Assembly: GCA_964424195.1 (NCBI GenBank)
Contig: CAYRHT010000002.1
Coordinates: 8,458 to 72,457, forward strand
Source: an uncultured Gammaproteobacteria bacterium
GTDB lineage: Bacteria; Patescibacteriota; Patescibacteriia; UBA1558; S5-K13
Length of the DNA stretch: 64,000 nt
Direction: 5' to 3'
In this document: one piece after another, positions 11,186 to 58,221 of the stretch
Position numbering within the stretch: the first letter of the stretch is position 1
Layout of the letters: each line of letters opens with the position of its first letter
Program-made: the position numbers and the translations under genes
The notes under the pieces: generated by a model
What the model was told of the DNA's origin: nothing
Databases searched by the model: none
What the model saw: the letters and a program-made list of their open reading frames with translations, nothing else

Positions 11186-12163
11186 ATGAAATTAAACAAA
11201 CAAAAAATAGTTCTATTGATAATTTTAATGCTAATAGTAGTAATCTCTTTATTTTTTATATTCAAGAAAGAAAAATATTTTATACTATATATAGAAGGTT
11301 TAGATCAGGGAGTTTTAAAGCAATATTCAACAGAAGATTTACCAAATTTGAAGTCTTTGTTCAGTGCCGATTTAAATTCAGAAATTGCTTTAAACAAGGA
11401 GTCAAGTTTTTTAACAATTTTATCAGGGGAGTATAAATATGGATCTTTTGATCAGAAGGATCCAAATAAATATATTGTTAGTAAAAAAAAGGTAGATAAT
11501 TTAGGATTATTTTATCAAACAAATCTATATCAAAATGTTAGAGAAAATAATTTATCTTTTAGATTTTTAGAAAGAATAGAAAAAATTTTAAAGCTGGATA
11601 AATTTAAAGAGGATATAATTGTTTATTTAACTAATTTGGAAAATAATGATTTAAATTCTTATCAAGAGATTGATGGCTTAGTAGCTCAAATAGAAAAGAA
11701 AATCGGTTTTAACACTAGATTATTAATTATTACTCCTAATTATGAAGAAGAAAATAGTTTTAGAGAAATTAATGAAAACTTAATAGATAAAGGATTTTTA
11801 ACTTGTCCCGATAACTTTCAAGACTTGTCAGAATGTGATTTAGCTAATTCTTTTGCTTATAGTCCTGCTCCAGGTGAAGTATATATTAACAAAAAAGGTC
11901 GAGAAGAGTTGGGTCGAGTAGATTGGGATTATGAAGGAGTCATTGAAGATACAGCTTATGTTTTAACTTCTGAAATAGAAGAGAAAGATTTAAGGATGTA
12001 TAAGAGTAGAAATTATTTTCAACAAAAAGATGTACCAGAAATATTTGTTTTTGAAAAACAAAGGGAAGAAAAGGGTATAATGCTATCGAACAAAAAATTT
12101 ACTCAGGATAAATATGATTATTTAGAAATTTTAAACTTAATTAACTTAATTAAAAATGATTAA
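11186..12163 (+). CDS. Hypothetical membrane-anchored protein of the surface-protein operon.
   Basis: N-terminal 'MKLNKQK' followed by a hydrophobic helix. It is tightly coupled to its neighbours, lying 2 nt after the previous stop and overlapping the next gene by 8 nt. There is a weak, unverified resemblance to the N-terminal core of the alkaline-phosphatase superfamily. Confidence 0.5.
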   Translation: MKLNKQKIVLLIILMLIVVISLFFIFKKEKYFILYIEGLDQGVLKQYSTEDLPNLKSLFSADLNSEIALNKESSFLTILSGEYKYGSFDQKDPNKYIVSKKKVDNLGLFYQTNLYQNVRENNLSFRFLERIEKILKLDKFKEDIIVYLTNLENNDLNSYQEIDGLVAQIEKKIGFNTRLLIITPNYEEENSFREINENLIDKGFLTCPDNFQDLSECDLANSFAYSPAPGEVYINKKGREELGRVDWDYEGVIEDTAYVLTSEIEEKDLRMYKSRNYFQQKDVPEIFVFEKQREEKGIMLSNKKFTQDKYDYLEILNLINLIKND

Positions 12164-15100
12164 TAAATTAAAACAATTAGATTATCGTTATTATATTGGA
12201 ATAATAGTTATTGCTATTGCAATAGTTTTTGGTTTAATTTTTATTTTACGAGCTCCAAAGTCAGCTGAAGCTGAATGGTTTAATGATGGCTGGTATTATC
12301 GAAAATCTATTCCAGTCACTAATAATACTACAACAGAAATGAACGTTTATGTTTCTGTTACCATTGATACTTCAGATACTACTAAATTTCAAACAGATTG
12401 TGATGATGTGCGTTTTACTAATAGTGCTGGTAATAGATTTCCTTATTATCTTGTTTCAGGTTGTGGTACAGACACAACAGTAATTCATGTTTATTTTAAT
12501 AACCTTGATGCTGGTTTACAAAATATTTATTATTATTATGGTAATTCATCTGTAGAACAAGGTTCTGTTGGTTCAAATTTTTCTACGGTAGCTTCTGATT
12601 ATACAATTGGAACTATTACTAGTGAGGAACAATCTGAAGTACCAATAGCTTATTGGTCATTTGATGAAGGTTATGGAACTATTGCTCATGATAATACTTC
12701 TAGTAAAAATCATGGGACTTTAACAAATATGACCACCACTGGTATTTCTACAGCTTGGGTAGATGGTAAGTTCGGAAAAGGATTGAAGTTCGGTGATCAT
12801 AATTATGATAATTTAGCATTAGAAGAGGAGATAGGTTTTAGTGATGGAGATGAACATACTTTATCTTTTTGGATAAAGAATGATGGTACAAATACTTACA
12901 TCACTGTAGCTGGGAAAGAAACTGAGAATGGAAATTCAATTTATATTATTGATAATAGTGTAAATTATATATTTTATTTTCGAAGTGCAACTCAAAAACA
13001 ATTAGTGTCAGGAGTGGATACAACAGTTTTGTTTGATAAGAATTGGCATCAAGTTGTAATGACTGTGAATTCTAGTAAGCTATGTTCAGTTTATTTTGAT
13101 GGTAAATTACAGGGATCAGCAACTTTGACTACTTCAGATATGATTTATAGTTCTATTGGTTCAGGAATAAATGCTTTTCAAGTTGATGGCATAATGGACG
13201 AAGTTAAAATATATAATTATGTCTTATCAGCTTCGCAAGTTAAAAAATCTTATTCTTCTAGGTCTAAGAATTTTACAGCTATGAATTTATCTAAGTCAAA
13301 AAAAGATGCTCAGAATAAAAGAAATGTGGGTCTAGTTGGTTTCTGGAAAATGGATGAGGATTCTTGGGATAGTACAGCCAATGAAGTAATTGATTATTCA
13401 GGACTAGGAAATCATGGTACCAGTTATGCTGATGCTACTACAACTTCTAGTGCTAGATATAATAGAGCGGGAGAATTTGATGGAACGGGAGATTATATTA
13501 GTTGTGGTAGTGATAGTAGTTTAGATATGGGTGACGGCAGTTTAACTATTGGAACATGGATTAAAGCAGATAATGTGGATAATTATATGGGTATTATTAA
13601 TAAGAGTGCTTTGGGAGGTAGTCTTGGTTGGGGCATGGGAATAACTAATGGCAAAGTTAGATGTGAAATCCATGATGGAAGTAGAGCTTGGACTGAATAT
13701 GATACAACAATTGAAATCGATACTTGGTATTATATTATGGCTGTATTTGATAGAGGGGATGATAAAATAAAAGTTTATATTAACGGTAATAAAGAAAGTA
13801 CGGAGCTAGATATAACAGGTAAGGGATCAATAACTGGTTCTAACTGTTACATAGGTAGTCTTAATACTTCTGCTTGGATTTTCGATGGACAAGTTGATCA
13901 TGTTAAAGTTTGGAAACGAGCATTGACTACTAAAGAAATATCAGAAGAATATGTTACTGGACCAGCTCCAGTTGCTTATTGGTCCATGGATCAGATTGAC
14001 GGTACTACGGTTGTTGATCAGTCGGGAATGGGTAATGATTGTACTATGGATGGAGGAGTAACTAAAAATAATAATTGGAAGCCTGGGAAAGTAGGTCAGG
14101 CTTTATCATTTAAAGACGATGCTGATGCTCATCTTGATTGTGGTAATGATTCTAGTTTAGATATTACTGGAGCTATTACCATAGAATCTTGGGTTAAACC
14201 AGATTCATATGATTTTGCTTATCCTATGTTTCTTTCTAAGGCAGGATCATATTATAGAACTGGTTTAGCTGCTGCAGGTGATGGAAGAGTATTTTTTAGA
14301 GTGAGAGTTGGTGGTGCGTATAAAACAGCCTATTCCTCTTCAGACGTCCCTTTGAATGAATGGACTCATGTTATAGGAACTTATGATGGAGAATATATGA
14401 GAGTTTATGTAAATGGTATTTTAAATGGAACTCCCTTAGCTCTATCAGGTAATATTGAGACTAATGTTGCTTCATTAATAGTAGGTTCAGCTTCTTTTGA
14501 TGGAGATTTAGATGAAATTAAACTTTATAATTATGCTCTTACTCCATATCAAATAGCTCAAGCATATGGTAATGGAGCTCCACTTACTTATTGGTCATTT
14601 GATGAGGGACAAGGAACTACTGCTTATGATAGTTTAGGGAGTAAAAATCATGGAACTTTAACTAATATGACTACTACCGGAGTTTCTTCAGCTTGGGTAG
14701 ATGGAAAGTTTGGAAAGGGTTTGAGATTTGATGGTAGTGATGATTATATTGATGCAGGTGATTTTTTAGATAATGGTGAAACAACGGTTAGTTTATGGTT
14801 TAGAAGTAGTTATCAAGGAACACATAATGGTCTAATAGATTTTGCTGGATCTAGTGGTATTGGACATTTTGATTTTAATCATTCTGGAGACGATAGACCT
14901 ATTTTATATTTAGATTCTACTAATTTTCGTTATTTTGATGCTTCAGCCACAGATTATATGGATGGAGAATGGCATTATTTAGTACTATATATACCAGGGT
15001 CAGACATGGATGATGTTTCAAGTGCAACATTAAGTATTGATAATGTTAATATACCATCATCTAGCACATCTGCCGCCGGAACTCAGGATACTTGGAATGA

Positions 15101-17228
15101 TTTATATATTGGTAAAACTAATTATGGTTCTTTTAATGGTGATCTAGATGAAGTTAAAATATATAATTATCAACTTACTCCTTTTGATATTGAAAAAGAG
15201 TTTGTCTCTTCTAGAGGAAAGAAACAAACTGGGCTTAATTTATCTAAATCAGAACAAGATAATGAGAGTGCTCAAGTCGAAGGTTTAGTAGCTCATTGGA
15301 AAATGGATGAAGCTTCTTGGGATGGTACAGCTGATGAGGTAATAGATTATTCAGGCTTAGGAAATCATGGAGTGTCAGCAGATGATGCTCATACTACAAC
15401 TACTGCTAGGTATAATAGAGCGGGGGGATTTGATGGAACAGATGATAGGATTACGATTGCCAATGATGATTCTTTAAATCCATCATCGGCAATTACTATC
15501 TCAGCTTGGTTTTATGCTAATTCTTTTGATGGTGATAGTATTAGTGGCAATTGTATTTTATCAAAGGGTGCTAGTACTAATGGTTATTGGTTAGTTGTGG
15601 GTAGTGGAAAAGCTCATTTTAAATGGGGAAGTTATTTAACTAATGATCTTGATTCAGATACCTTTAATCCAACTACTGGAGAATGGCATCATATTTTAAT
15701 ATCTTATGATGGAAATCATGGTATTTTTTATTATGATGGAAATGAAGTTGGAGAAGGAGATATGACTAAGGGTGATAACAATACTAGTTCTATGTCTCTG
15801 GGTTATTATATTAGTCCAGTCCCAAATCATTTTGATGGAGCTTTAGATAATGTGAAGATTTGGAATCGTGCTTTGTCTCCTACAGAAGCAGTAAATGAAT
15901 ATCATAAAATATTATCTCCAGTTGGTTATTGGTCAATGGATAATATTGATGGAATTACAGTTACTGATGATTCAGGAATGGGAAATGATTGTACTATGGA
16001 TGGAGAATTAAACAAGGCTGATGATTGGAAGCCAGGAAAAGTAGGGCAATCTCTATTTTTTGAAAATTGTTATAATGGAGGTCAATGTGAAGGGCATCAC
16101 TTAGAATGTGGTAATGATTCTAGTTTAGATATCGAAGGGGCAATTACTGTTGAGCAATGGGTAAAACCAAACTCCTTTACTTATTATCCAATCTTTATGA
16201 GAAAACCAAGCGATCTTTATCGGATTGGTTTAAGAGGTACAAATCCTACAGAAAATTTAGGAGATGGTCGGGTATATTGGAGAATTAAGATTGGTGGAGT
16301 AGCTAAAGCTAAGAGTGGTGCTATTTATATTCCTTCAAATGAGTGGAGTCATGTAGTTGGGACTTATGATGGAGAATATATGAGGCTTTATATAAATGGT
16401 GTGTTAGACGGTGCACCTTATGCTGTGACTGGGGATATAGATGTTTCTACTTATGATTTGATAGTAGGCGCTTATAATCTTTCCGGTAATTATACTTTTG
16501 ATGGTGACATGGATGAAGTTAAACTTTATAATTATGCTCTTACTTCTCATCAAGTAGCTCAAGCATATAATAATGGTAAACCGATTGCTCATTGGACATT
16601 TAATGAAGGAGAAGGTGATGTAGTAAAAAATAAAATAAATAATACTTATCATGGAGATATAGTTAATGCTACTTATGTTTCTGGTAAATCTGATACTGCT
16701 TTAAATTTTGATGGAGATGGAGATTATATTGATTTTGATAATACTGAAGATGATACTTTTTATCCTACTACTACTTATGAATCAGTAACTATTGCTACTT
16801 GGATGAAATTAAATACAGCCAGTCAAGAATCAGCTGTGGTTGGAAGATTTGATTCAGTTGGATCTAATCATTGGTATAATTATGGTTCGGGTATAAAATA
16901 TGTTAATGGAGCTGTGAAAGTGATGGGAATGTCTAATGCAAATAATCCTTTATTAAGTTATGATTTAACAGATACAAGTTCTTGGCATCATGTTGTAGCT
17001 ATTGTGAATACAACAGATGGTAAGTTATATGTAGACGGTATTTTGAGAGATAGCGGAGATTTAAGTTCAAATGGCGGTTATGATTTTGCTATTGGAGCTC
17101 AAACTAATGCTGGAACTAGTTTTTACTTTGATGGGCAATTGGATGAAGTAAAAATATGGAATTATGGCTTAAGTCCATTAGATGTTCAAAATGATTATAA
17201 TCTAGGGAAAGGGGTGTTTTTTAAGTAG
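12156..17228 (+). CDS. Secreted giant protein made of seven concanavalin-A-like/LamG (Laminin_G_3-type) lectin domains.
   Basis: The leader 'MINKLKQLDYRYYIGIIVIAIAIVFGLIFILRAPKSAEA' is followed by repeated LamG signatures ('YWSFDEG', 'NHGTLTNMTTTG', 'WVDGKFGKGL', 'DGxLDEVK(I/L)YNYxLT'). A three-domain supermodule occurs twice. Confidence 0.75.
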   Translation: MINKLKQLDYRYYIGIIVIAIAIVFGLIFILRAPKSAEAEWFNDGWYYRKSIPVTNNTTTEMNVYVSVTIDTSDTTKFQTDCDDVRFTNSAGNRFPYYLVSGCGTDTTVIHVYFNNLDAGLQNIYYYYGNSSVEQGSVGSNFSTVASDYTIGTITSEEQSEVPIAYWSFDEGYGTIAHDNTSSKNHGTLTNMTTTGISTAWVDGKFGKGLKFGDHNYDNLALEEEIGFSDGDEHTLSFWIKNDGTNTYITVAGKETENGNSIYIIDNSVNYIFYFRSATQKQLVSGVDTTVLFDKNWHQVVMTVNSSKLCSVYFDGKLQGSATLTTSDMIYSSIGSGINAFQVDGIMDEVKIYNYVLSASQVKKSYSSRSKNFTAMNLSKSKKDAQNKRNVGLVGFWKMDEDSWDSTANEVIDYSGLGNHGTSYADATTTSSARYNRAGEFDGTGDYISCGSDSSLDMGDGSLTIGTWIKADNVDNYMGIINKSALGGSLGWGMGITNGKVRCEIHDGSRAWTEYDTTIEIDTWYYIMAVFDRGDDKIKVYINGNKESTELDITGKGSITGSNCYIGSLNTSAWIFDGQVDHVKVWKRALTTKEISEEYVTGPAPVAYWSMDQIDGTTVVDQSGMGNDCTMDGGVTKNNNWKPGKVGQALSFKDDADAHLDCGNDSSLDITGAITIESWVKPDSYDFAYPMFLSKAGSYYRTGLAAAGDGRVFFRVRVGGAYKTAYSSSDVPLNEWTHVIGTYDGEYMRVYVNGILNGTPLALSGNIETNVASLIVGSASFDGDLDEIKLYNYALTPYQIAQAYGNGAPLTYWSFDEGQGTTAYDSLGSKNHGTLTNMTTTGVSSAWVDGKFGKGLRFDGSDDYIDAGDFLDNGETTVSLWFRSSYQGTHNGLIDFAGSSGIGHFDFNHSGDDRPILYLDSTNFRYFDASATDYMDGEWHYLVLYIPGSDMDDVSSATLSIDNVNIPSSSTSAAGTQDTWNDLYIGKTNYGSFNGDLDEVKIYNYQLTPFDIEKEFVSSRGKKQTGLNLSKSEQDNESAQVEGLVAHWKMDEASWDGTADEVIDYSGLGNHGVSADDAHTTTTARYNRAGGFDGTDDRITIANDDSLNPSSAITISAWFYANSFDGDSISGNCILSKGASTNGYWLVVGSGKAHFKWGSYLTNDLDSDTFNPTTGEWHHILISYDGNHGIFYYDGNEVGEGDMTKGDNNTSSMSLGYYISPVPNHFDGALDNVKIWNRALSPTEAVNEYHKILSPVGYWSMDNIDGITVTDDSGMGNDCTMDGELNKADDWKPGKVGQSLFFENCYNGGQCEGHHLECGNDSSLDIEGAITVEQWVKPNSFTYYPIFMRKPSDLYRIGLRGTNPTENLGDGRVYWRIKIGGVAKAKSGAIYIPSNEWSHVVGTYDGEYMRLYINGVLDGAPYAVTGDIDVSTYDLIVGAYNLSGNYTFDGDMDEVKLYNYALTSHQVAQAYNNGKPIAHWTFNEGEGDVVKNKINNTYHGDIVNATYVSGKSDTALNFDGDGDYIDFDNTEDDTFYPTTTYESVTIATWMKLNTASQESAVVGRFDSVGSNHWYNYGSGIKYVNGAVKVMGMSNANNPLLSYDLTDTSSWHHVVAIVNTTDGKLYVDGILRDSGDLSSNGGYDFAIGAQTNAGTSFYFDGQLDEVKIWNYGLSPLDVQNDYNLGKGVFFK

Positions 17229-26527: not shown

Positions 26528-26556
26528 AAAAATCTCCTTTGAAGGAGATTTTTTGT
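26528..26556 (+). terminator. Rho-independent terminator.
   Basis: 'aaaatctcctttgaaggagattttttg': a 10-bp stem followed by a T-run. Confidence 0.7.
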
Positions 26557-26658: not shown

Positions 26659-27330
26659 ATGTGGATCAAGTTTTTAGTTTTAATGCTTGTCGCTGTGCTT
26701 AATATAGTTTTAGGTTTGATTATTTTAATGAAGAATAAAAATAGAGATAAATCTAAACTATATTTTTCATTAATGTATTTTAGTGCTGGATTATGGTCTG
26801 GTAGTATATCCTTATCTCTATTAATAATTAATGAAGATATTTTTTTATGGTTTGCAAAATTTTTCTTTATTTTTGCTACTATGATTTTTCTTTCTTTTTT
26901 ATTGTTTTGTATTGAATTTCCGTATAAAATGAAGAAATTGCCAGTTTTATTTAAGTACCTTATTATTTTAGCTACTATTTATATATTTTATATTAGCTTG
27001 TCTAATAGATTATTAATTGGTGTAGAAAGTTATAAATTTGGATTACGAGAAGTTGAAAATAGTTTTTATCATTTAATATATGGAATGTATTTTTTTATTT
27101 TATTGATCTATAGTTATTATTCATTATTTTATAAATATTTTAATAGTAGTGGAGTTAATAAATCAAGATTATTATGGATTATAGTAAGCACTTTGATTTC
27201 TTTTACATTGGGTATATTTTTTCGTTGGTATTTGCCTTATAAGGATGCATATGATTTTTATTGGTTAGCACCTATATTTATTATATTTATGAACTTTTCA
27301 ATAACTTATTTATTATTTAAGAAAGATTAA
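26659..27330 (+). CDS. Stand-alone 7TM sensor-type integral membrane protein (paralog A). It is homologous to the N-terminal membrane domain of the histidine kinase at 32392.
   Basis: Six to seven hydrophobic helices. The N-terminal 47 aa are nearly identical to the next gene. It shares 'LFLGLIIL-K-K-K', 'WS' and 'YW(L/I/V)GP(I/V)' with the histidine kinase N-terminus. Confidence 0.6.
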   Translation: MWIKFLVLMLVAVLNIVLGLIILMKNKNRDKSKLYFSLMYFSAGLWSGSISLSLLIINEDIFLWFAKFFFIFATMIFLSFLLFCIEFPYKMKKLPVLFKYLIILATIYIFYISLSNRLLIGVESYKFGLREVENSFYHLIYGMYFFILLIYSYYSLFYKYFNSSGVNKSRLLWIIVSTLISFTLGIFFRWYLPYKDAYDFYWLAPIFIIFMNFSITYLLFKKD

Positions 27331-27335
27331 AATAT

Positions 27336-28019
27336 ATGTGGATAAAATTTAGTATTTTAATATTCGTTGCTCTGTTTAATATTAGTTTAGGTTTGATTAT
27401 TTTGTTGAAGAATAAGAATAAAGATAAATCTAAGTTATATTTTTCTCTGATGTGTTTTAGTGCTGGATTATGGAGCTTTGTTTCTGCTTTAGTTCAGATT
27501 ACAACTAATATTCCTTATTATATTTGGATTGATAGATCTATTTATGTTTTTACAAGTTTTTCAGTTTTATTCTTTTTGTTTTTTAGCTATGAATTTCAAT
27601 ATAAAATTAGAAAGATACCTAATATATTAAAGTATTTTTTTATTATACTAACTTTTTTGATGATTTTATTAGTTTTGTCTAATAAATTTATTATTGGTGT
27701 TTATCATTATAATGAATTTTTGTATCAATTAGAAAATAAAGGTTTAAATTTAATTTATGGACTGTATTTTATGATGTTATTAATTTGTAGTTATTATTTA
27801 TTATTTTTTAAGTGTTTTAAATCTCAGGGAATTAATAAATCAGTATTAAAATATCTTATTTATTCTACTTTATTCCCTTTCATACTAGCTGTTTTATTTG
27901 CTTGGTATTTTCCTTATACAGGAAGACATTATTTATATTGGATTGGTCCAATTTTTACAATTATTATGAATTATTTAATATTTCGTTTATTTTTAGGAAA
28001 GACAAAATTAAATGAATAA
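27336..28019 (+). CDS. Stand-alone 7TM sensor-type integral membrane protein (paralog B).
   Basis: It starts 5 nt after paralog A with 'MWIKFSILIFVALFNISLGLIILLKNKNKDKSKLYFSLMCFSAGLWS'. The C-terminal half has diverged. Confidence 0.6.
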   Translation: MWIKFSILIFVALFNISLGLIILLKNKNKDKSKLYFSLMCFSAGLWSFVSALVQITTNIPYYIWIDRSIYVFTSFSVLFFLFFSYEFQYKIRKIPNILKYFFIILTFLMILLVLSNKFIIGVYHYNEFLYQLENKGLNLIYGLYFMMLLICSYYLLFFKCFKSQGINKSVLKYLIYSTLFPFILAVLFAWYFPYTGRHYLYWIGPIFTIIMNYLIFRLFLGKTKLNE

Positions 28020-28977
28020 AGTTTTATTAATCTTTTATGGAGGAACTAAACTTTCTAATAAGAAGGGAAGTTTTATTTTCGTAGAAAAGAAGTCTAATAT
28101 TGAAAGCTGGATGAAAGAGGTGCCAGAGATTTCATTAATGGCGGACGTAAAAACGCTCTTTATAGATAAAAATAGTAGAATCTTAGACAAAAATAATGTT
28201 CAAGAATTAATTCGTCAGATAGAGAATCATATGGATCAAGTTGATGGAGTAGTGATATTACATGATGTTGATACTATTCCTTTGTTAGCTAATCAATTAT
28301 TTTGGCAGATTCAAAACCCTTCTAAACCAATAGTAATTACTGGATCAAATGTAATTGAACAAGCTAATGAATATTTACCAGATTTATCATTTAAAGCTAA
28401 TATTATTAATGCTTTTCAAGTTGTAAATAGTAGTCTTCATGAGATTAGTGTTATTTATGGTAATAGAGTCATTTTAGCTTCTAAGATAGTTCGAACTAAA
28501 TTACATGATTTAAATATATTTAAGGCTATTGATAAAGAGTATTTAGCTAGAATTGATTTTGGATTGTCTATTAAATCTAAAAAGAAATACAAAGAGAAGG
28601 TTAAATATTATTATGATTTTAATTATGATTTTTTGTTTTTTAATTCTATTCCTAGTATAGAAATATTAGAAACATTATTAAGTAAAGATAGTGATTTAAA
28701 GGTTATTGTCTTTAAAGCTTTACCTAATCAGATTATAGAAAGAGAAAAATTAGTGAAAGTTTTTAACTTAGCTCAGAAAAATAAGAAATTAGTTATTTTT
28801 TATAATCAGATTGGTTTTTCTAAAGATTTCTTTAAAGATACAATTTTAACTGTTAGTAAAATTAGTCCAGAGTGTTTAAGTGCTAAGTTATCTTGGATTT
28901 TAGGGCAAACTAAGGATGAGGATAAGATTAGGAGTTTATTAAAGAAGGATATTCAAGGAGAGTTTTTGAATCTATAA
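28012..28977 (+). CDS. L-asparaginase/glutaminase-family protein with a divergent active site.
   Basis: It aligns with type I asparaginase: 'LLIFYGGT' ~ 'YTGGTIGM' and 'DGVVILHDVDTI...KPIVITGSNVI' ~ 'DGFVILHGTDTM...KPVIVTGSQIP'. The second catalytic Thr of the 'HGTDT' motif is replaced (HDVDT). It overlaps the upstream 7TM gene by 8 nt. Confidence 0.55.
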   Translation: MNKVLLIFYGGTKLSNKKGSFIFVEKKSNIESWMKEVPEISLMADVKTLFIDKNSRILDKNNVQELIRQIENHMDQVDGVVILHDVDTIPLLANQLFWQIQNPSKPIVITGSNVIEQANEYLPDLSFKANIINAFQVVNSSLHEISVIYGNRVILASKIVRTKLHDLNIFKAIDKEYLARIDFGLSIKSKKKYKEKVKYYYDFNYDFLFFNSIPSIEILETLLSKDSDLKVIVFKALPNQIIEREKLVKVFNLAQKNKKLVIFYNQIGFSKDFFKDTILTVSKISPECLSAKLSWILGQTKDEDKIRSLLKKDIQGEFLNL

Positions 28978-29593: not shown

Positions 29594-29658
29594 CTTTGGA
29601 AAGCCTTATTTTTGTGTTAGAATTAAGTATATAGTCTAATCTATGTACTTATTTTGTT

Positions 29659-31428
29659 ATGGAAAATAATGAGACAATTTATAGTCGTTTTCAAAAAAAT
29701 GTATTAAATAATGGAAAGAAAACGGCGCTAGCTTATGTTAATAATGAAGATTATGAGAAAATAAGTTACCAAGAATTAAATAATTTTGTATTACAGATTG
29801 TTAATTATTTTTTAAGTTTAAAATTGAAAAAGGGGGACAGAGTAATTATCTTAAGTGAGAATAGATGGGAATGGCCAGTGATAGATTTAGCAAGTAATTA
29901 TTTAGGTTTAATTTTAGTACCAATTCATACTACTTATGGCTATAAATACATTAATTATATTATTGAGAAGACTGATCCAAAATTAGTCTTTATTTCAAAT
30001 CAAAAGCTATTTGAAAACTTTAAAAAGATTGATAAGAATTTAATAGATAAATTTCAAGAAATAATTTTGTTAGATAATAATGTAAAGGATGATTTAACAT
30101 TAAAATATTGGTCAGATATTATTAGTAATTTTGATAGTAAAGTTAATATTGATCCGGTTTTAGATTTAGAAACAATCATGACTATTATTTATACATCTGG
30201 AACTACTGGAATGCCCAAGGGAGCTGTTTTAACTAATCATAATATTTTAGTTAATATTGATAATGTTTTGAAATATGTGCCAATATATTCTAATGATAGA
30301 TTTTTTTCTTTCTTACCATTATCACATGTTTTAGAAAGAGTTGCTGGTAATATAGTACCTTTGACATTAGGAGCTTCTATTTATTATAGTCGTAATCCAA
30401 AAACTTTAGTCGACGATATCAAAAAAGCTCAACCAACTATCATGGTCTCGGTTCCGAGAATTTTTGAAAAAATATTTGATAAAATTCATGATAAGTTAAG
30501 AGATGGTTCTAAATTTAAACATCAACTTTTTTATCATGCTTTAAAAGTTGTTAGTAAAATTAATGCTTCTAAAAGAAACAAAGAAAAACCTAATAAATTA
30601 ATATATTTACAATCTAAGGTTTTAGATAGTCTAGTCTTTAAGAAAATTAGGAGTATTTTTGGAGGTCATTTAAGATTGGCAATTTCTGGAGGTTCAAGTT
30701 TAGATAGAAAAATAGCTAGGTTTTTTGAAGACGTGGGAGTCCAAGTAATAGAGGGCTATGGTTTAACAGAAACTTCTCCAATTATTGCTGTGAATAAGAT
30801 AGATGATTATAAATTTGGTACTGTTGGTTCAGTTTTAGCAAATTTAGATTTAAAAATAAATGATGATAAAGAAATTTTGGTTAAAGGAAGCTCAGTGATG
30901 TCTGGTTATTGGCAAGACGAAGAGTCAACAAAGAATGCTCTTCAAGATGGATGGTTTTCTACTGGAGATCTTGGTTTCATGGATAAGGATGGTTTTTTAA
31001 ATATAATTGGTCGTAAGAAGGAAATGATAGTTTTATCAACTGGTAAGAATATTATTCCAGTGAATATTGAATTAGCTGTAAATTATGATCGGTTTATTAC
31101 TCAATCATTAGTTATTGGTTTAAATCGGAAATTTATTACGGCTTTGATTGTTCCCGATTTTGAAGAATTAAAAATATATTGTCAGCAGAATGATATTAAA
31201 TGTAGTGAAAATAAAGATTGTTTAGGAAATGAAAAAATACAGAAATTATATCAGAATCGGATTAATAAGTCTTTAAAAGGTTTTGCAGATTATGAACAGA
31301 TTAAAAGTTTTTATTTAGTAGATCGGGAATTTGATCAAGAACACGATGAATTAACGCCTACTTTGAAGTTGAAGAGGGAGAATATTAAGAGTAATTTCTT
31401 TCAAATAATTGATAAATTTTATGAGTAA
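29659..31428 (+). CDS. Long-chain acyl-CoA (or acyl-ACP) synthetase, AMP-dependent ligase family.
   Basis: AMP-binding signature 'IIYTSGTTGMPKGAVLTNHNIL', plus 'GYGLTETSP' and 'WFSTGDLGFMDKDGFLNIIGRKKEMI'. Confidence 0.85.
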   Translation: MENNETIYSRFQKNVLNNGKKTALAYVNNEDYEKISYQELNNFVLQIVNYFLSLKLKKGDRVIILSENRWEWPVIDLASNYLGLILVPIHTTYGYKYINYIIEKTDPKLVFISNQKLFENFKKIDKNLIDKFQEIILLDNNVKDDLTLKYWSDIISNFDSKVNIDPVLDLETIMTIIYTSGTTGMPKGAVLTNHNILVNIDNVLKYVPIYSNDRFFSFLPLSHVLERVAGNIVPLTLGASIYYSRNPKTLVDDIKKAQPTIMVSVPRIFEKIFDKIHDKLRDGSKFKHQLFYHALKVVSKINASKRNKEKPNKLIYLQSKVLDSLVFKKIRSIFGGHLRLAISGGSSLDRKIARFFEDVGVQVIEGYGLTETSPIIAVNKIDDYKFGTVGSVLANLDLKINDDKEILVKGSSVMSGYWQDEESTKNALQDGWFSTGDLGFMDKDGFLNIIGRKKEMIVLSTGKNIIPVNIELAVNYDRFITQSLVIGLNRKFITALIVPDFEELKIYCQQNDIKCSENKDCLGNEKIQKLYQNRINKSLKGFADYEQIKSFYLVDREFDQEHDELTPTLKLKRENIKSNFFQIIDKFYE

Positions 31429-32395
31429 TAAGTTTTTATTTACTACGCAATTAAGACATATAAACGATTTGGATATGAAATATTCATTTCTAAGATTCAT
31501 TCCAAGATGTATAAAATATTTTTTATTAAAAATATACCCTATTAAGTATAAAATATATCCTTTATTAGAAAAAGGGAATATTAAGGGATATTTATTAGTA
31601 TTTTTATACACATCAAAACAAATTATTTCTAATAAAAAATATTTTAGTACTTTATTTTTGAAGATTATTAAAAAAATTAAACGTAAAATGAATTTTTCTA
31701 TTGTTGGATTAGGTTCTTTTACTTCAGTTGTTTCTCATGGTGGTGTAGATTATCATAATTCTATAAAGGATGTGTCATTTACAAACGGTAATGCTTTGAC
31801 TACTTATGTTACTTTTAAGCATTTATTGCAAATACTTGATTTTTTAGATAAAAAAATAAGTATAGCTGTTATTGGCGCGAATGGTTCTATAGGATCAGCT
31901 ATCACAGCTTTAATATGTCAGTCTGGAATGTTTGGTGATGTAATGTGTATAGTTAGAAATAATACAAGTGTTTTAGATTCTTATAATTTAAATAATATTT
32001 TAATATCTTCTGATATTAATAAAATATCATCATATGATGTTATTGTTATGTGTACTTCAAGTAAAGAGGTTTTATTAGATAAAATAAATCTTAAACCTGG
32101 TGTGATTATTTATGATATTACTCAGCCGTCTAATATTTCTGATAATTTTAAACATAAAAAGAATGTTAAAGTTTTTACTGGGGGATTATTAAAATTAGGA
32201 TCAAACTTGAAATTGAATATTGATTTAGGATATGGTAAAGATATAATTTACGGTTGTTTAGGGGAAACAATTTTATTGTCAATGTTTAAATATGATCAAG
32301 ATTTTTCTTTAGGACATGTAACTATTGATAAAGTTGAACAAATAGGAAATATGTTAAATGAATCAGAAATAAAAGTAATAAAATTAAAATTATGA
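31409..32395 (+). CDS. NAD(P)-binding reductase homologous to cyanobacterial acyl-ACP reductase (AAR, fatty-aldehyde forming).
   Basis: It aligns with AAR: 'LGSFTSVV' ~ 'LGGFTSII', 'FTNGNALTTYVTF' ~ 'FTTGNTHTAYVIC', 'IAVIGANGSIGSAI' ~ 'VAVVGATGDIGSAV'. It overlaps the synthetase by 20 nt and the kinase by 4 nt. Confidence 0.55.
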   Translation: MINFMSNKFLFTTQLRHINDLDMKYSFLRFIPRCIKYFLLKIYPIKYKIYPLLEKGNIKGYLLVFLYTSKQIISNKKYFSTLFLKIIKKIKRKMNFSIVGLGSFTSVVSHGGVDYHNSIKDVSFTNGNALTTYVTFKHLLQILDFLDKKISIAVIGANGSIGSAITALICQSGMFGDVMCIVRNNTSVLDSYNLNNILISSDINKISSYDVIVMCTSSKEVLLDKINLKPGVIIYDITQPSNISDNFKHKKNVKVFTGGLLKLGSNLKLNIDLGYGKDIIYGCLGETILLSMFKYDQDFSLGHVTIDKVEQIGNMLNESEIKVIKLKL

Positions 32396-34590
32396 GATCC
32401 TTATTATTATTTTTAATAGCGTGTATAAATTTGTTTTTAGGATTGATTATTCTCACTAAAGGTAAAAGTAAAAAATATAATATTTATTATTTTTTAGTTG
32501 TTTTATCTTTGTCGTTTTGGTCGCTTGGAGTGGGGATGTTTTATTATAATACAGATATTAGTTTTTATGACGTTTTTTTTGTAAAAGTATTATATTTTTT
32601 TGGCTCACTTATATCTACTAGTTTTTTAGGATTTGTTTTATCTTTTCCTAAAGATAAGAAAATAAATTTAAAATGGAATGTATTACTATTTTCCCCTAAT
32701 TTTTTATTATTCTATTTAATCTTTATAACAAATAATGTTATAGATAGTGTATATATTGATACTTTTAAAAAAATAGCATATGGTAACTATTTATTTATTT
32801 TTAATATAGAATTTATACTTATATTATTGGTAGCATATCTAATTTTATTAAAAAAATATTTTTTAGTTAAAAATAAAAATTCTTTATTAAAAAAACAATT
32901 ACAGTATATTACTATAGGAACTTTGATTTCTGCAATGATTGGTTCTTTTTGTAATATTATATTACCGGCTTTAGGAAATTTTTCAGTATTTTGGGTTGGT
33001 CCAGTTTCTACAATATTTATGGTGGGTTTATTTACTTATGCTATTACGCGTTATCGTCTCATGGATATCCGTCTAGTGATATCTAAAAGTATTTTGTACG
33101 TAGCTTTGGTTGGTATTATTACTTTCTTGTTTACTACAGCCACTTTGTTAACTGGAGAAATCTTTGTTGATATACCAGGGGTATCAAAGACATTAATTAC
33201 TTTAGGTGTTTCTTTAATAATAGTTATAGGAATTGATCCTCTGAAAAGATTTTTAAATAATATTACTGATAAAGTATTCTATAGAGGTAAAATTGATTAT
33301 CAAGATGTTTTAAGAAAGTTAGGTGGAATCATTGCTAAAGAAATTGATCTAAAAAAACTACTTATTGATTTATCTCATAATATTGAAGAGTTATTAAAGT
33401 ATAAAGAGGTAGATTTTTTGTATAAGAGTAATAGTTCTGGAATTTACCGAGGAATTATTAATAATAATGAGGTGATCACAGATAAAGAAGAAATAGTTAA
33501 ATATTTAGAAGATTCACGGGAGATTATTCTTACTGAAGAATTAGAAATTAAAGCACGTGATAAGGGTGTAGAAGAAAAAAAATATCTTCTTTCTATAGCT
33601 AAACGTTTACGAACAATGAATATTGGATTAATAGCTCCAATAATATCAGAAAATAATATCATTGCTTTTTTGATTATTAATAAGAAGTTATCAGACGATG
33701 TTTTTTCTACTCCAGATTTAAATTTAATATCAGTAATGACTCCTCAAATTGCTAATGCTTTAGAAAAGGCTAAACTATATAGCGAAGTTCAAGAATTTAA
33801 TGTTAAATTACAAGAAAAGGTGGATAAAGCTACTGGAGAATTAAAACGTGCTAATATTGATTTAAAAGAAGCCAATGTTCATTTAAAGCAATTAGATGAG
33901 GCTAAATCAGAATTTTTATCAATTGCTTCTCATCAATTGAGAACTCCATTAACTGGAATAAAAGGATATTTATCTATGATTCTAGAGGGGGACTATGGAA
34001 AGATGGATAAAAAACAAGAAAAGATTATTCAAGATGTATTTAATGCTAGTGATCGAATGAGTAGATTAATTAATGTCTTCTTAAATGTTTCTCGAATTGA
34101 ATCTGGTCGTTTGAAATTAGACTATACAGATGTTAATTTAGGAAATCTAATTAATGAATGTATTAAAGACTTGCACTCAACTGCTCAAGAAAAAGGTTTA
34201 GAGTTGAATTTTAAGTATCAGAAGAATGAAATTCCGTTAGTAAGCGTTGATTCTGATAAAATGAAAGATGTAGTTTTAAATTTAATTGATAATGCTATTA
34301 AATATACCCATAAAGGTAGGATTGATATTAAATTATTAAAAGAAGGGGAGGATAAAATTTTAGTTCAAATTAAGGATACTGGTATAGGTTTAGATCAAGC
34401 TGGAATAGAAAAATTATTTAGTAAATTTTCTCGAGGGGATGGTATTTCTAAGATTAATACAGGCGGTTCTGGGTTAGGTCTTTATATCGTGAAAAGAATT
34501 ATTGAAGAACATGGTGGAAAAGCTTGGGTAGAGAGTGATGGAGTGGGTAAGGGAAGTACTTTTCAATTTACTCTACCGATTAATAAATAG
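32392..34590 (+). CDS. Sensor histidine kinase with an N-terminal 7TM sensor, a GAF-like region, HisKA and HATPase_c.
   Basis: H-box 'ASHQLRTPLTGIKGY'; N/G boxes 'LIDNAIKYT' and 'DTGIGL...GGSGLGLYIVKRIIEEHGG'. Seven N-terminal helices are paralogous to 26659 and 27336. No response regulator lies in the window. Confidence 0.85.
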   Translation: MRSLLLFLIACINLFLGLIILTKGKSKKYNIYYFLVVLSLSFWSLGVGMFYYNTDISFYDVFFVKVLYFFGSLISTSFLGFVLSFPKDKKINLKWNVLLFSPNFLLFYLIFITNNVIDSVYIDTFKKIAYGNYLFIFNIEFILILLVAYLILLKKYFLVKNKNSLLKKQLQYITIGTLISAMIGSFCNIILPALGNFSVFWVGPVSTIFMVGLFTYAITRYRLMDIRLVISKSILYVALVGIITFLFTTATLLTGEIFVDIPGVSKTLITLGVSLIIVIGIDPLKRFLNNITDKVFYRGKIDYQDVLRKLGGIIAKEIDLKKLLIDLSHNIEELLKYKEVDFLYKSNSSGIYRGIINNNEVITDKEEIVKYLEDSREIILTEELEIKARDKGVEEKKYLLSIAKRLRTMNIGLIAPIISENNIIAFLIINKKLSDDVFSTPDLNLISVMTPQIANALEKAKLYSEVQEFNVKLQEKVDKATGELKRANIDLKEANVHLKQLDEAKSEFLSIASHQLRTPLTGIKGYLSMILEGDYGKMDKKQEKIIQDVFNASDRMSRLINVFLNVSRIESGRLKLDYTDVNLGNLINECIKDLHSTAQEKGLELNFKYQKNEIPLVSVDSDKMKDVVLNLIDNAIKYTHKGRIDIKLLKEGEDKILVQIKDTGIGLDQAGIEKLFSKFSRGDGISKINTGGSGLGLYIVKRIIEEHGGKAWVESDGVGKGSTFQFTLPINK

Positions 34591-34607: not shown

Positions 34608-35078
34608 ATGTATATTATTCATGAACAAAAACAAAGATCTAGTATTATAGTTATATTAATATATATTATTTCTTCTATAATTCTATTATTAGTTGTTATT
34701 AATCCAAGATTCTTAAGTTTACCGGAATTAACAAAAGTTTCTAGAATAGTTTTAATTATAGTTTTATTAATTGATATCTTTTTTTTAGAAAGTTTTTACG
34801 AATTGAAATTTAAAATAACTAATGAAGGTTTAGAATTTGGTTATGGTTTATTGAAGAATAAAATTAGTAAAAATAGTATTAAATCAATCTCAATTTATAG
34901 TTCTAAAGGCAATTTTTTTGGTTATGGTATTAGGTTTAATAAAAGTAAGGTAATGGGATTTATAGCTCAACATGGTGAAGGTTTAGAAATAACTCATAAA
35001 GACCAAAGGAAGTTTTTTATTACTATGAATAATCCACAAGAAGCCTTAGATATTATTAAAGAAAATAACTATGTATAA
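34608..35078 (+). CDS. Hypothetical membrane protein (bacterial PH-like?).
   Basis: An N-terminal hydrophobic helix followed by a small soluble domain. It overlaps pgk by 8 nt. Confidence 0.35.
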   Translation: MYIIHEQKQRSSIIVILIYIISSIILLLVVINPRFLSLPELTKVSRIVLIIVLLIDIFFLESFYELKFKITNEGLEFGYGLLKNKISKNSIKSISIYSSKGNFFGYGIRFNKSKVMGFIAQHGEGLEITHKDQRKFFITMNNPQEALDIIKENNYV

Positions 35079-57383: not shown

Positions 57384-58157
57384 ATGAAAAAGAAAATTGG
57401 AATTATGGGTTTTGGAGAAATTGGTCAATCAGTTGCTAGATTATATCCAAAATCAAAGTATCAAATTTTATCTAAAGATTTAAAACATGATTCTCTAAAA
57501 GAGGAGAGGGTTGATGTTTTGCATATAGCTATCCCATATAGCAGTGATTTTATTAAAGACGTTGTAAAACAAGTTAAATTAAATCAACCAGAATTTGTAA
57601 TTATAGAATCAACTACTAATGTAGGAGTTACTAGTAAGATTAATAGTAAATTAAAAAAGAAAATAGTAGTTCATAGTCCAGTTCGAGGAATGCATCCTAA
57701 CTTGACAAAAAGCTTAAAATGTTTCATAAAGTATATTGGAGCAGATAATAAGAATATTGGGGAGAGAGCAGTGAGGCATTATCAAGCTATTGGAGTTAAA
57801 TCTAAACTTTTTATGCCATCTGAGTCAACTGAACTAAATAAAATATTATCAACTTCTTATTATGGAATTTGTATTGCTTGGGCTGCAGAAATTAAAAGAT
57901 TATGTGATCAGCACGGTGTAGATTATAAATCATTTGAAGATTTTAATAATTCTTATAATGAAGGTTACCTTAAGATGGGATTAAAAAATGTAGTTCGTCC
58001 GACTCTATATCCACCAAAAAATGGTATTGGAGGTCATTGTGTATGGGAAAATGCAACTATGTTTAATCCCCGAGCTAAATCAAAGTTTTTAGATTTAATA
58101 TTAGATGCTGGTAAAGATAAATCTGCTAAAACATTAAAGTTAAAAAAGAAAAGTTAA
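57384..58157 (+). CDS. NAD(P)-binding Rossmann-fold oxidoreductase (short UDP-glucose/GDP-mannose dehydrogenase-like?).
   Basis: N-terminal 'KIGIMGFGEIGQSVA' (GxGxxG) and 'GIGGHCV'. The family assignment is uncertain. Confidence 0.35.
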   Translation: MKKKIGIMGFGEIGQSVARLYPKSKYQILSKDLKHDSLKEERVDVLHIAIPYSSDFIKDVVKQVKLNQPEFVIIESTTNVGVTSKINSKLKKKIVVHSPVRGMHPNLTKSLKCFIKYIGADNKNIGERAVRHYQAIGVKSKLFMPSESTELNKILSTSYYGICIAWAAEIKRLCDQHGVDYKSFEDFNNSYNEGYLKMGLKNVVRPTLYPPKNGIGGHCVWENATMFNPRAKSKFLDLILDAGKDKSAKTLKLKKKS

Positions 58158-58221
58158 TTTGTTTGGTTCTATTTAGTATGATATACTCTTAATAGAGTAT
58201 CCTTTTATGGATAATGATAAG

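What the first reader, a model, noticed from the sequence alone, without database searches (positions are those of the whole stretch)
29659..34590. Operon coupling an acyl-CoA/ACP synthetase, a cyanobacterial-AAR-like acyl reductase and a sensor histidine kinase
The 328-aa protein aligns along its length with cyanobacterial acyl-ACP reductase, the fatty-aldehyde-forming enzyme of the alkane pathway: 'LGSFTSVV'/'LGGFTSII', 'FTNGNALTTYV'/'FTTGNTHTAYV', 'IAVIGANGSIGSA'/'VAVVGATGDIGSA'. It overlaps the upstream AMP-dependent fatty-acid-activating enzyme by 20 nt and the downstream orphan histidine kinase by 4 nt. In cyanobacteria, Aas plus AAR activate and reduce fatty acids to aldehydes. An episymbiont-type genome without fatty-acid synthesis may use the same pairing to convert scavenged host fatty acids into fatty aldehydes or alcohols, under control of a membrane sensor. 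AAR homologs outside cyanobacteria are rarely discussed.
Basis: partly seen in the sequence, partly recalled or inferred. Interest (0 to 1): 0.65.

Follow-up and report, generated by a model that had tools for sequence, protein, structure and literature searches.

The report
Acyl-thioester reductase paired with membrane sensor
A small symbiont-type bacterium encodes a fatty-acid-activating enzyme, a relative of the cyanobacterial fatty-aldehyde-forming reductase and a membrane sensor kinase as three overlapping genes, and the reductase–sensor pair recurs across its bacterial group (Patescibacteria), which suggests that lipid processing is wired to signalling there.

Summary
Three overlapping + strand genes encode a long-chain acyl-CoA-synthetase-type enzyme (29659-31428), a 324/328-aa reductase (31409 or 31421 to 32395) and a 732-aa histidine kinase (32392-34590).

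What is new is the context. In at least 22 distinct Patescibacteria loci (27-58 % GC) the reductase is followed directly by a HisKA_7TM-GAF kinase; this happens in 0 of 50 loci from other phyla. In one other lineage the same 7TM-GAF sensor carries an HD-GYP output instead. The usual upstream gene is a PlsC/Aas-type acyltransferase, sometimes fused to the reductase. The synthetase seen here is a minority variant. PilZ-reductase fusions also exist.

Best reading: an acyl-thioester reductase that is functionally coupled to a membrane sensor. The aldehyde product, the direction of the coupling and the absence of fatty-acid synthesis remain untested. This is a new variant of a known kind, of moderate interest.

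The parts
29659..31428 (+). Long-chain fatty-acid--CoA ligase-type adenylate-forming enzyme (589 aa). Motifs: TSGTTGMPKG at aa 179-188 (nt 30193-30222), GYGLTE at aa 366, STGDLG at aa 437.
   Evidence: Pfam AMP-binding 253.8 bits plus AMP-binding_C_3. Best NCBIfam hit is FadD11, aligned end to end, at 296 bits against a cut-off of 950. Motifs. Public name 'long-chain acyl-CoA synthetase'.
31409..32395 (+). AAR / PigE-N-type acyl-thioester reductase (328 aa from TTG 31409; 324 aa from ATG 31421, the more likely start).
32255..32257 (+). Codon TGT for Cys283, the predicted acyl-enzyme nucleophile (equivalent to AAR C294 and PigE C296).
   Evidence: Aligned with the catalytic Cys of AAR and PigE. 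Invariant in 124 of 124 family members. Coordinates.
31874..31894 (+). Dinucleotide-binding loop GANGSIG (aa 156-162), equivalent to AAR 162-GATGDIG-168.
   Evidence: Role taken from PMC7089970.
31781..31792 (+). TNGN motif (aa 125-128) at the junction of the N-terminal and Rossmann domains, equivalent to AAR TTGN and the TAD Thr-Thr-Gly motif.
   Evidence: Role in TAD from bioRxiv 10.1101/2024.10.28.620694.
31448..31450 (+). Gln14 where 119 of 124 family members have His (motif F-x-F-I-x-H-P). A lineage-specific substitution of unknown consequence.
   Evidence: Shared by the 81 %-identical relative P0001.
32392..34590 (+). Sensor histidine kinase (732 aa): 7TM bundle (aa 2-220), two further long helices (227-296), GAF domain (303-440), signalling helix, HisKA (504-572, phospho-acceptor His514 at nt 33931-33933), HATPase_c (620-730).
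   Evidence: Pfam HisKA_7TM 52.4, HisKA 63.8 and HATPase_c 100.9 bits. AF2 model pLDDT 85.7. GAF fold matches. Homologs carry Pfam GAF. Coordinates.
26659..27330 (+). Stand-alone HisKA_7TM protein (223 aa), a paralog of the kinase's sensor domain with no output domain. Possibly part of the same system.
   Evidence: Pfam HisKA_7TM 43.6 bits. 31 % identity to the kinase N-terminus, E 1e-20. Similar stand-alone copies lie next to the reductase in L022 and L113.
27336..28019 (+). Second stand-alone HisKA_7TM protein (227 aa), 49 % identical to the first.
29596..29623 (+). Promoter-like site TTGGAA-16 nt-TAGAAT (with TG) in the 65-nt gap before the synthetase gene. Weak evidence only.
   Evidence: Promoter-like sites in the region are no more frequent than in shuffled sequence (78 found, 74.4 expected).

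Best explanation
This is a lipid-handling enzyme pair wired to a membrane sensor, in a Patescibacteria-type genome.

Step 1 (inferred from family): the synthetase adenylates a free long-chain fatty acid and makes an acyl thioester, probably acyl-CoA.

Step 2 (first half shown by homology, second half inferred): the reductase takes the acyl group onto Cys283, as AAR and PigE do. It then reduces the thioester with NAD(P)H bound at GANGSIG and releases a fatty aldehyde.

Step 3 (the coupling is shown by comparative genomics; the mechanism is inferred): the reductase works together with the 7TM-GAF histidine kinase encoded immediately downstream and translationally coupled to it. Characterised relatives hand the aldehyde straight to a partner protein: ADO for AAR, and a fused aminotransferase for PigE, KecF and TamH. 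Here the constant partner is the 7TM sensor. So either the hydrophobic product (or the enzyme's acylation state) reports fatty-acid supply to the sensor, or the sensor gates the enzyme.

In most relatives the acyl thioester pool is linked to a PlsC/Aas-type lysophospholipid acyltransferase rather than to a synthetase. The module therefore sits at the branch between re-acylating scavenged lipids and reducing acyl groups.
For: Enzyme class:
- Foldseek TM 0.78 to AAR.
- HMM hits to the PigE N-domain and to AAR.
- C283, E286, T287, GAxGSIG, TxGN, D236 and P240 are conserved across 124 members.
- R183 matches AAR R189 of the 2'-phosphate / CoA-phosphate pocket.
- P0001 is 81 % identical with 91 % positives over 192 aligned residues, which is consistent with purifying selection.

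Lipid substrate:
- A FadD11/ACSL-type synthetase lies directly upstream in the window and in L069.
- A PlsC/Aas-type acyltransferase lies upstream in most Patescibacteria loci.
- Acyltransferase-reductase fusions exist: P0011, P0023, P0098, P0103.
- SRPBCC lipid-binding fusions exist: L020 and P0147.
- L148 has synthetase-ACP-KS-reductase.
- AAR accepts acyl-CoA as well as acyl-ACP (PMC9743570 and PMC7089970).

Aldehyde chemistry in relatives: an aminotransferase sits directly upstream in Alkaliphilus-type genomes. PigE and KecF are described in PMC8341465 and PMC6498172.

Coupling to the sensor:
- The kinase is immediately downstream on the same strand, with gaps of -29 to +49 nt, in 22 distinct Patescibacteria loci of 27-58 % GC with varied flanking genes. 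It is so in 0 of 50 loci from other phyla.
- A 7TM protein sits at +1 in 34 of the 35 loci that have one.
- 27 of 29 sensor-linked reductases fall in one clade.
- L168 has the same 7TM-GAF module, collinear at E 2.4e-28, with an HD-GYP output instead of a kinase.
- PilZ-reductase fusions show the family is repeatedly tied to signalling.
- The stop and start codons overlap as ATGA.
Against: - No activity was measured. The superfamily includes TAD, where the Cys-thioester may be resolved without net reduction.
- The window protein is divergent. It differs at 27 of 71 strongly conserved columns and is the only one of 124 with Gln at the near-universal His.
- Only one of AAR's three phosphate-pocket arginines is kept.
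- No enzyme that would use an aldehyde (ADO, aminotransferase, alcohol dehydrogenase, wax synthase) was found in the window.
- The synthetase pairing is rare.
- The sensor family is not exclusive to the reductase. Relatives follow an unrelated protein of about 455 aa (L170, L173) or a different lipid-type cluster (L172).
- No response regulator is nearby, so the output of the kinase is unknown.
- The carrier (CoA or ACP) and the absence of fatty-acid synthesis in this genome were not testable.
Confidence: 0.5

Rival explanations
1. The protein uses only the first half of AAR chemistry. It takes the acyl group from acyl-CoA onto Cys283 and passes it on without reduction, for example to phosphate (making acyl-phosphate for PlsY, in place of the missing PlsX) or to the neighbouring PlsC/Aas-type acyltransferase. 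It would thus act as an acyl relay in organisms that lack ACP.
For: The usual neighbour and fusion partner is a glycerolipid acyltransferase. Probst et al. 2020 found PlsY and PlsC but no PlsX and no ACP-related enzymes in CPR genomes (PMC7242380). TAD shows that this fold may resolve the Cys-thioester with a nucleophile other than hydride. Two of AAR's three NADPH-phosphate arginines are not conserved. No aldehyde-consuming enzyme is in the window.
Against: The dinucleotide loop GAxGSIG is invariant in 124 of 124 members and R183 is kept, which argues for a bound nicotinamide cofactor. The closest characterised relatives by sequence (PigE N-domain, AAR) are reductases. No precedent for phosphorolysis in this family was found.
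Confidence: 0.2
2. The reductase and the kinase are neighbours only through inherited gene order. The kinase has nothing to do with the enzyme.
For: Many of the Patescibacteria loci share a longer syntenic block, grpE-dnaK-dnaJ-x-acyltransferase-reductase-kinase-trpS-aspS, so part of the conservation is shared ancestry. Relatives of the sensor occur without the reductase.
Against: The pair persists where the flanks differ: the window, L069, L022, L012, L017, L019, L061, L078, L087 and L090. It spans 27-58 % GC and reductases only 28-37 % identical. Gaps run from -29 to +49 nt. In L168 the same sensor module follows the reductase with a different output domain.
Confidence: 0.1
3. It is a true ortholog of cyanobacterial AAR working in an alkane pathway: acyl-ACP to aldehyde to alkane.
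For: Full-length fold match and conserved Cys. Public annotation uses that name.
Against: It scores 74.3 bits against the TIGR04058 cut-off of 449.7 and is 17-20 % identical to AAR in the structural alignments. No ADO-like protein is in the window. Its clade is defined by a different partner.
Confidence: 0.03
4. It is a shikimate-, semialdehyde- or amino-acid-dehydrogenase-like enzyme, or a GluTR-like enzyme, acting on a non-lipid substrate.
For: Pfam reports only Shikimate_DH (26.4 bits) and DapB_N. Older annotations say 'predicted amino acid dehydrogenase'. tRNA-synthetase genes lie nearby in relatives.
Confidence: 0.04

Closest known systems
Cyanobacterial acyl-ACP reductase AAR (Synechococcus elongatus orf1594; PDB 6JZQ/6JZU; NCBIfam TIGR04058)
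   Different: 17-20 % identity and far below the family cut-off. No ADO partner. Two of three phosphate-pocket arginines are missing, and the N-terminal His is replaced by Gln. The conserved partner is a 7TM-GAF sensor, with acyltransferase or synthetase upstream.
N-terminal thioester-reductase domain of PigE (prodigiosin), with the related TamH and KecF
   Same: Best curated-model hit (117 bits, E 6.7e-34) and best PDB sequence hit (4ppm, E 2.9e-16), with the Cys conserved. These are described as reducing an acyl thioester to an aldehyde that is passed to a partner domain (PMC8341465, PMC6498172, PMC9594044).
   Different: Those are fused to a class-III aminotransferase and sit in natural-product clusters. 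No aminotransferase is in the window. The split aminotransferase-plus-reductase form occurs in other branches such as Alkaliphilus.
Terminal amidation domain TAD of CarI (carmabin; PDB 9E4S)
   Different: TAD is the C-terminal domain of an NRPS, is NAD-specific through an Asp, and is thought to amidate rather than release an aldehyde. It is 12-15 % identical in the structural alignments.
LuxCDE fatty-acid reductase complex of luminous bacteria (own knowledge)
   Same: Same logic: an ATP-dependent synthetase activates a fatty acid, a reductase with an acyl-Cys intermediate makes the aldehyde with NADPH, and an acyl-transferase supplies the acyl groups.
   Different: Analogous rather than homologous. 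LuxC is an aldehyde-dehydrogenase-type protein and LuxD an alpha/beta hydrolase. The aldehyde feeds luciferase, not a sensor.
E. coli Aas and the chlamydial CT775/CT776 pair (lysophospholipid acyltransferase plus acyl-ACP synthetase)
   Same: The acyltransferases next to the reductase best match the acyltransferase part of Aas, and the window synthetase matches its ligase part. Both are devices for re-using exogenous fatty acids (PMC5693948; the rest is own knowledge).
   Different: Aas has no reductase and no sensor. Here each half occurs separately beside the reductase.
HisKA_7TM (PF16927) sensor kinases, and membrane-state sensors such as DesK (own knowledge)
   Same: A polytopic membrane sensor with no large extracytoplasmic domain, encoded next to lipid-modifying genes.
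   Different: No ligand is known for PF16927. The only papers found merely list the domain. No solved structural relative exists. No adjacent response regulator is present here.

Membership tests
Cyanobacterial long-chain acyl-ACP reductase (TIGR04058 equivalog) | Score above the curated family cut-off (449.7 bits) | tested here: not met
   74.3 bits, E 1.1e-20.
Cyanobacterial long-chain acyl-ACP reductase (TIGR04058 equivalog) | Catalytic Cys (C294) forming the acyl-enzyme | tested here: met
   C283 aligns with C294 and is invariant in 124 of 124 relatives.
Cyanobacterial long-chain acyl-ACP reductase (TIGR04058 equivalog) | Dinucleotide recognition loop GX(1-3)GX(1-2)G (162-GATGDIG-168) | tested here: met
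   156-GANGSIG-162.
Cyanobacterial long-chain acyl-ACP reductase (TIGR04058 equivalog) | Three-arginine pocket for the NADPH 2'-phosphate or CoA 3'-phosphate (R189, R193, R314) | tested here: inconclusive
   R183 matches R189. V188 stands at R193, and R314 falls in a gap. This rests on a sequence alignment only.
Cyanobacterial long-chain acyl-ACP reductase (TIGR04058 equivalog) | Works with aldehyde-deformylating oxygenase (ADO), usually encoded nearby | tested here: not met
   No ADO-like or ferritin-like protein among the window's ORFs scanned with Pfam.
Cyanobacterial long-chain acyl-ACP reductase (TIGR04058 equivalog) | NADPH-dependent formation of fatty aldehyde from acyl-ACP or acyl-CoA | not testable with these tools
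   Needs an enzyme assay.
AAR / PigE-N / TAD superfamily (COG5322-type Cys-dependent thioester-processing Rossmann enzymes) | Two-lobed AAR fold over the full length | tested here: met
AAR / PigE-N / TAD superfamily (COG5322-type Cys-dependent thioester-processing Rossmann enzymes) | Invariant Cys at the start of the C-terminal helix, plus the T-x-G motif at the domain junction | tested here: met
   C283 within YGCLGETILL, and T125-N-G127-N128.
PigE-type bifunctional reductase-aminotransferase (NF053554) | Class-III aminotransferase fused or adjacent; score above 850 bits | tested here: not met
   117.3 bits, N-domain only. No aminotransferase in the window.
ANL-superfamily long-chain fatty-acid--CoA ligase (FadD11/ACSL type) | AMP-binding domain with the adenylation motifs | tested here: met
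   PF00501 at 253.8 bits (cut-off 29.9) and PF23562. Motifs TSGTTGMPKG, GYGLTE and STGDLG.
ANL-superfamily long-chain fatty-acid--CoA ligase (FadD11/ACSL type) | Score above a specific curated cut-off (FadD11, 950 bits), and known substrate and carrier | tested here: not met
   296.3 bits, aligned end to end. Chain length and the choice of CoA or ACP cannot be read from the sequence.
HisKA-type sensor histidine kinase with HisKA_7TM input | HisKA with phospho-acceptor His, HATPase_c, and an N-terminal PF16927 7TM region | tested here: met
   63.8, 100.9 and 52.4 bits, all above their cut-offs. His514 lies in SHQLRTP. GAF fold between the 7TM region and HisKA.
HisKA-type sensor histidine kinase with HisKA_7TM input | Cognate response regulator encoded nearby | tested here: not met
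   No receiver domain in the window. Among relatives only L015 and L017 have one nearby.

The most novel reading that the evidence does not exclude
The reductase is the input device of the sensor. It converts the cytoplasmic acyl-thioester pool (the supply of fatty acids scavenged from the host) into a membrane-soluble aldehyde, or into its own acylated state, and the 7TM-GAF module reads this directly. This would be an enzyme-coupled lipid-sensing system that is characteristic of Patescibacteria and that can be re-wired to c-di-GMP outputs (HD-GYP, PilZ) in other phyla. It would give the first ligand and logic for HisKA_7TM sensors, and a handle on how episymbionts monitor host-derived lipids.
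Probability: 0.25. Interest if true: 0.8.

Novelty: new variant of a known kind. Interest (0 to 1): 0.55.

Why it matters
Patescibacteria (CPR) are reported to be unable to make their own membrane lipids, and how they handle scavenged lipids is an open question (PMC7242380). This module links a thioester-processing enzyme of a known mechanistic class to lipid re-acylation genes and to an otherwise ligand-less family of membrane sensors, and it does so across the phylum. That makes it a concrete, cloneable entry point for two questions. First, do these episymbionts make fatty aldehydes, fatty alcohols or ether lipids from host fatty acids? Second, what do HisKA_7TM sensors detect? At family level, the recurrent fusions to PilZ, acyltransferase and lipid-binding domains suggest that AAR-like reductases outside cyanobacteria are regulated lipid-remodelling enzymes rather than hydrocarbon-pathway enzymes.

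Tried and rejected
- **Shikimate / semialdehyde dehydrogenase reading:** rejected. Only the Rossmann half matches.
- **AAR ortholog / alkane pathway:** rejected. The score is below the cut-off and there is no ADO.
- **PigE-like amine pathway:** rejected for this locus because it has no aminotransferase, though that arrangement is present in other branches.
- **Response regulator search:** a jackhmmer search with CheY, PhoB and Spo0F receivers found none in the window.
- **Operon boundaries:** the consensus scans were uninformative. Promoter-like sites occur at chance frequency, and the only terminator-like site inside the unit is a weak 5-bp hairpin within the synthetase gene. A good terminator lies far upstream at 26528-26553. 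Transcription may run on into the 156-aa gene and pgk-eno-gpmI downstream.
- **Reverse test from the sensor:** partly negative. L170 and L173 have an unrelated ~455-aa upstream gene. L171 has only a 14-bit reductase-like remnant. L172 has a different lipid-type cluster.
- **Role of the substituted His:** the AAR structure paper says nothing about it.
- **7TM fold search:** only weak GPCR-like matches.
- **Literature:** searches for Patescibacteria plus acyl-ACP reductase or lipid activation found no prior description.
- **AlphaFold-database fold library:** not available.
- **Whole-genome checks:** fab, acpP, plsX/Y/C, ADO and the response-regulator count could not be checked, because only flanks of the 953-kb contig are retrievable.

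Full report
**Observation.** The window is a low-GC (23-36 %) stretch packed with co-directional housekeeping genes and giant surface-type ORFs. The three ORFs of the finding are present as described: 29659-31428 (589 aa), 31409-32395 (328 aa from TTG) and 32392-34590 (732 aa). The synthetase stops at 31426-31428. The reductase can start at TTG 31409 (20-nt overlap) or at ATG 31421 (8-nt overlap). The public gene call (324 aa) and the N-terminus of the 81 %-identical relative P0001 favour the ATG. The reductase stop and the kinase start share ATGA at 32392-32395.

**What the reductase is.** Pfam sees only a Rossmann-type Shikimate_DH match (26 bits), but every more specific test points elsewhere.
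- NCBIfam gives the PigE N-terminal domain (117 bits, E 6.7e-34) and the cyanobacterial AAR model (74 bits, E 1.1e-20). Both are far below their equivalog cut-offs of 850 and 449.7 bits.
- An AlphaFold model built on 17 sequences is confident (pLDDT 87.7, pTM 0.89).

The Cys that carries the acyl-enzyme intermediate in AAR (C294) and PigE (C296) aligns with C283 (PMC7089970, PMC8341465). That Cys is invariant in 124 family members. So are G156, A157, G159, I161 and G162 of the dinucleotide loop, G127 of the TxGN motif, D236 and P240. Of AAR's three arginines around the NADPH 2'-phosphate / CoA 3'-phosphate, only the first is kept, as R183.

The window copy is a divergent member. It differs at 27 of 71 strongly conserved columns and is the only sequence with Gln at a His present in 119 of 124 members. 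Its closest relative shares the Gln and is 81 % identical, so the gene is maintained rather than decaying.

The protein is a superfamily member, though, not an AAR ortholog.

**How widespread the family is.** A profile search of 1.84 billion representatives finds 4,359 clusters at E ≤ 1e-3 and 1,674 at E ≤ 1e-30. Genome and metagenome scans returned relatives from Saccharibacteria, Parcubacteria/Paceibacteria, Omnitrophota, Bacillota, Armatimonadota, Anaerolineae and others. Published members outside cyanobacteria are PigE, TamH and KecF, which are thioester reductases that feed a fused aminotransferase, and TAD. Public annotation already labels the window protein "fatty aldehyde-generating acyl-ACP reductase", the synthetase "long-chain acyl-CoA synthetase" and the kinase "signal transduction histidine kinase". 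The enzyme call itself is therefore not new.

**The conserved context.** I called ORFs in 169 fetched loci and labelled them with phmmer and jackhmmer probes.
- Of 155 loci with a reductase ORF, 75 carry an uncharacterised ~300-aa protein at -1 or fused. This protein has no Pfam, NCBIfam or PDB match.
- 35 loci carry a HisKA_7TM protein, and in 34 of them it sits at +1.
- The two sets do not overlap.
- The sensor-linked loci are those titled Saccharibacteria, Parcubacteria, Paceibacteria, Yonathbacteria or Patescibacteria group, plus their unnamed look-alikes.
- There are 22 distinct loci of this kind. They span 27-58 % GC, have reductase-to-kinase gaps of -29 to +49 nt, and have varied flanking genes. 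None of 50 loci from other phyla has the arrangement.
- In a neighbour-joining tree, 27 of the 29 sensor-linked reductases fall in one clade of 28.

**The link is to the sensor domain, not the kinase output.** In L168 (GC 0.40, outside that clade) the order is synthetase, B12-radical-SAM protein, reductase, then an 845-aa protein with HisKA_7TM + GAF + GAF + HD-GYP. Its first 460 residues are collinear with the window kinase (E 2.4e-28). So the association is with the 7TM-GAF sensor module whatever its output. The window also has two stand-alone 7TM paralogs upstream, at 26659-28019. L022 and L113 have similar ones.

**Lipid connection.** In most Patescibacteria loci the gene upstream of the reductase is a PF01553 acyltransferase. 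Its best curated matches are the acyltransferase half of Aas and the PlsC family. The synthetase takes that place in the window and in L069. It lies two or three genes upstream in L168 and L148, and in L148 an ACP and a ketosynthase fragment accompany it. Fusions tell the same story:
- acyltransferase + reductase (P0011, P0023, P0098, P0103);
- SRPBCC lipid-binding + reductase (L020);
- PilZ + reductase (P0085, P0120, P0151);
- PilZ + SRPBCC + reductase (P0147).

The window synthetase has intact adenylation motifs and aligns end to end with the FadD11 model, but below its cut-off.

**The kinase.** Pfam finds HisKA_7TM, HisKA and HATPase_c. The phospho-acceptor is His514 in SHQLRTP. A model of residues 1-480 (pLDDT 85.7) shows seven TM helices with a short external hairpin, two further long helices, a GAF domain and a signalling helix. 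GAF structures are the only good matches, and the 7TM bundle has no solved relative. No receiver domain is encoded in the window. Among relatives only L015 and L017 have one nearby.

**The reverse test.** Starting from sensor homologs shows that the dependency is asymmetric. L171 is syntenic with the window (pgk and eno further downstream) and has only a 14-bit reductase-like remnant upstream. L172 (Omnitrophica) places the sensor after an ACP, dehydratase, ketosynthase and SDR-type reductase cluster. L170 and L173 have an unrelated ~455-aa gene upstream.

**Mechanism and what is inferred.**
- Shown: homology, fold, conserved catalytic and cofactor residues, the overlapping gene arrangement, and the phylum-wide reductase-sensor pair with lipid-enzyme neighbours.
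- Inferred from the characterised relatives: acyl transfer onto Cys283 and hydride transfer from NAD(P)H, giving a fatty aldehyde. AAR accepts acyl-CoA as well as acyl-ACP.
- Inferred from context: a long-chain acyl substrate, and functional coupling to the sensor.

In AAR, PigE, KecF and TamH the aldehyde is handed directly to a partner. Here the constant partner is a 7TM-GAF sensor, so I favour a model in which the enzyme and the sensor act together. Either the product (or the acylation state) signals to the sensor, or the sensor gates the enzyme. The PilZ fusions show that signal-controlled versions of the enzyme exist, and the direction here is open.

**The main rival.** The enzyme could act as a non-reductive acyl relay, for example producing acyl-phosphate in place of the missing PlsX. 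This is suggested by the acyltransferase partners, by the reported lack of ACP and PlsX in CPR genomes and by the TAD precedent. The invariant nicotinamide-cofactor loop argues against it.

**Verdict.** The alkane-pathway analogy and the emphasis on the synthetase pairing are not the conserved biology. The finding worth carrying forward is the Patescibacteria-wide pairing of an AAR-like thioester reductase with a 7TM-GAF sensor, next to lipid re-acylation genes. This is a new variant of a known kind, of moderate interest, and directly testable.

Noticed in passing
window 26659-27330 and 27336-28019: Two tandem stand-alone HisKA_7TM proteins with no output domain. They are 49 % identical to each other and 29-31 % identical to the kinase's sensor domain. 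Similar stand-alone copies flank the reductase in L022 and L113.
   Followed up: partly
window 28012-28977: An asparaginase-fold protein (Pfam Asparaginase, 80 bits; far below the type I, type II and GatD cut-offs). It keeps the GGT nucleophile motif (YGGT), but the canonical HGTDT motif reads HDVDT, so it may not be a normal asparaginase. It lies in the same gene string, two genes upstream of the synthetase.
   Followed up: no
L055 6000-6899, L054 5825-6745; fusions P0081, P0128, P0132: A conserved ~300-aa protein with no Pfam, NCBIfam or PDB match is the immediate upstream neighbour, or the N-terminal fusion partner, of the AAR-like reductase in 75 of 155 loci (Bacillota, Armatimonadota and others). 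It never co-occurs with the 7TM sensor.
   Followed up: partly
P0085, P0120, P0147, P0151 (family members, not in the window): PilZ (c-di-GMP receptor) domains are fused to the N-terminus of AAR-like reductases, once together with an SRPBCC lipid-binding domain. This suggests c-di-GMP-controlled versions of the enzyme.
   Followed up: partly
L170 3622-4986 and L173 753-2120: An unannotated ~455-aa protein family (42 % identical between the two loci) sits directly upstream of 7TM-GAF kinases related to the window's. A single-domain response regulator is encoded on the opposite strand upstream.
   Followed up: partly
L001 11379-13059: A called gene of 665 aa combines GlutR_N, a weak Shikimate_DH match and a class-II tRNA-synthetase core (PF00152). 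This is an unusual fusion of a GluTR-like domain to an aminoacyl-tRNA synthetase in a Patescibacteria-type contig.
   Followed up: no
window about 58000-60500: GC skew is positive from 1 to about 58 kb and turns negative from about 60 kb. Gene orientation flips at the same place: + strand genes run up to 59235 and - strand genes start at 59262. A XerC/D-type tyrosine recombinase sits at 58279-59235. Together these look like a replication terminus / dif region.
   Followed up: no
window 139-8682 and 12156-17228: Giant ORFs of 2847 aa (LVIVD repeats and a pectinesterase-like segment) and 1690 aa (seven Laminin_G_3 / concanavalin-like domains). They are probably surface or adhesion proteins of an episymbiont.
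   Followed up: no
window 34608-35078: A 156-aa protein with hydrophobic N-terminal segments and only faint bacterial-PH-domain matches. It starts 18 nt after the kinase stop and overlaps the pgk start by 8 nt, so the transcription unit may continue into pgk-eno-gpmI.
   Followed up: no
L172 1-5008: In an Omnitrophica contig, a 7TM-GAF-HATPase sensor follows an ACP, FabA/ApeP-like dehydratase, ketosynthase, NAD_binding_4 (SDR-type acyl reductase), nitroreductase and amine-oxidase cluster. This is a non-homologous acyl-reductase context for the same sensor type.
   Followed up: no
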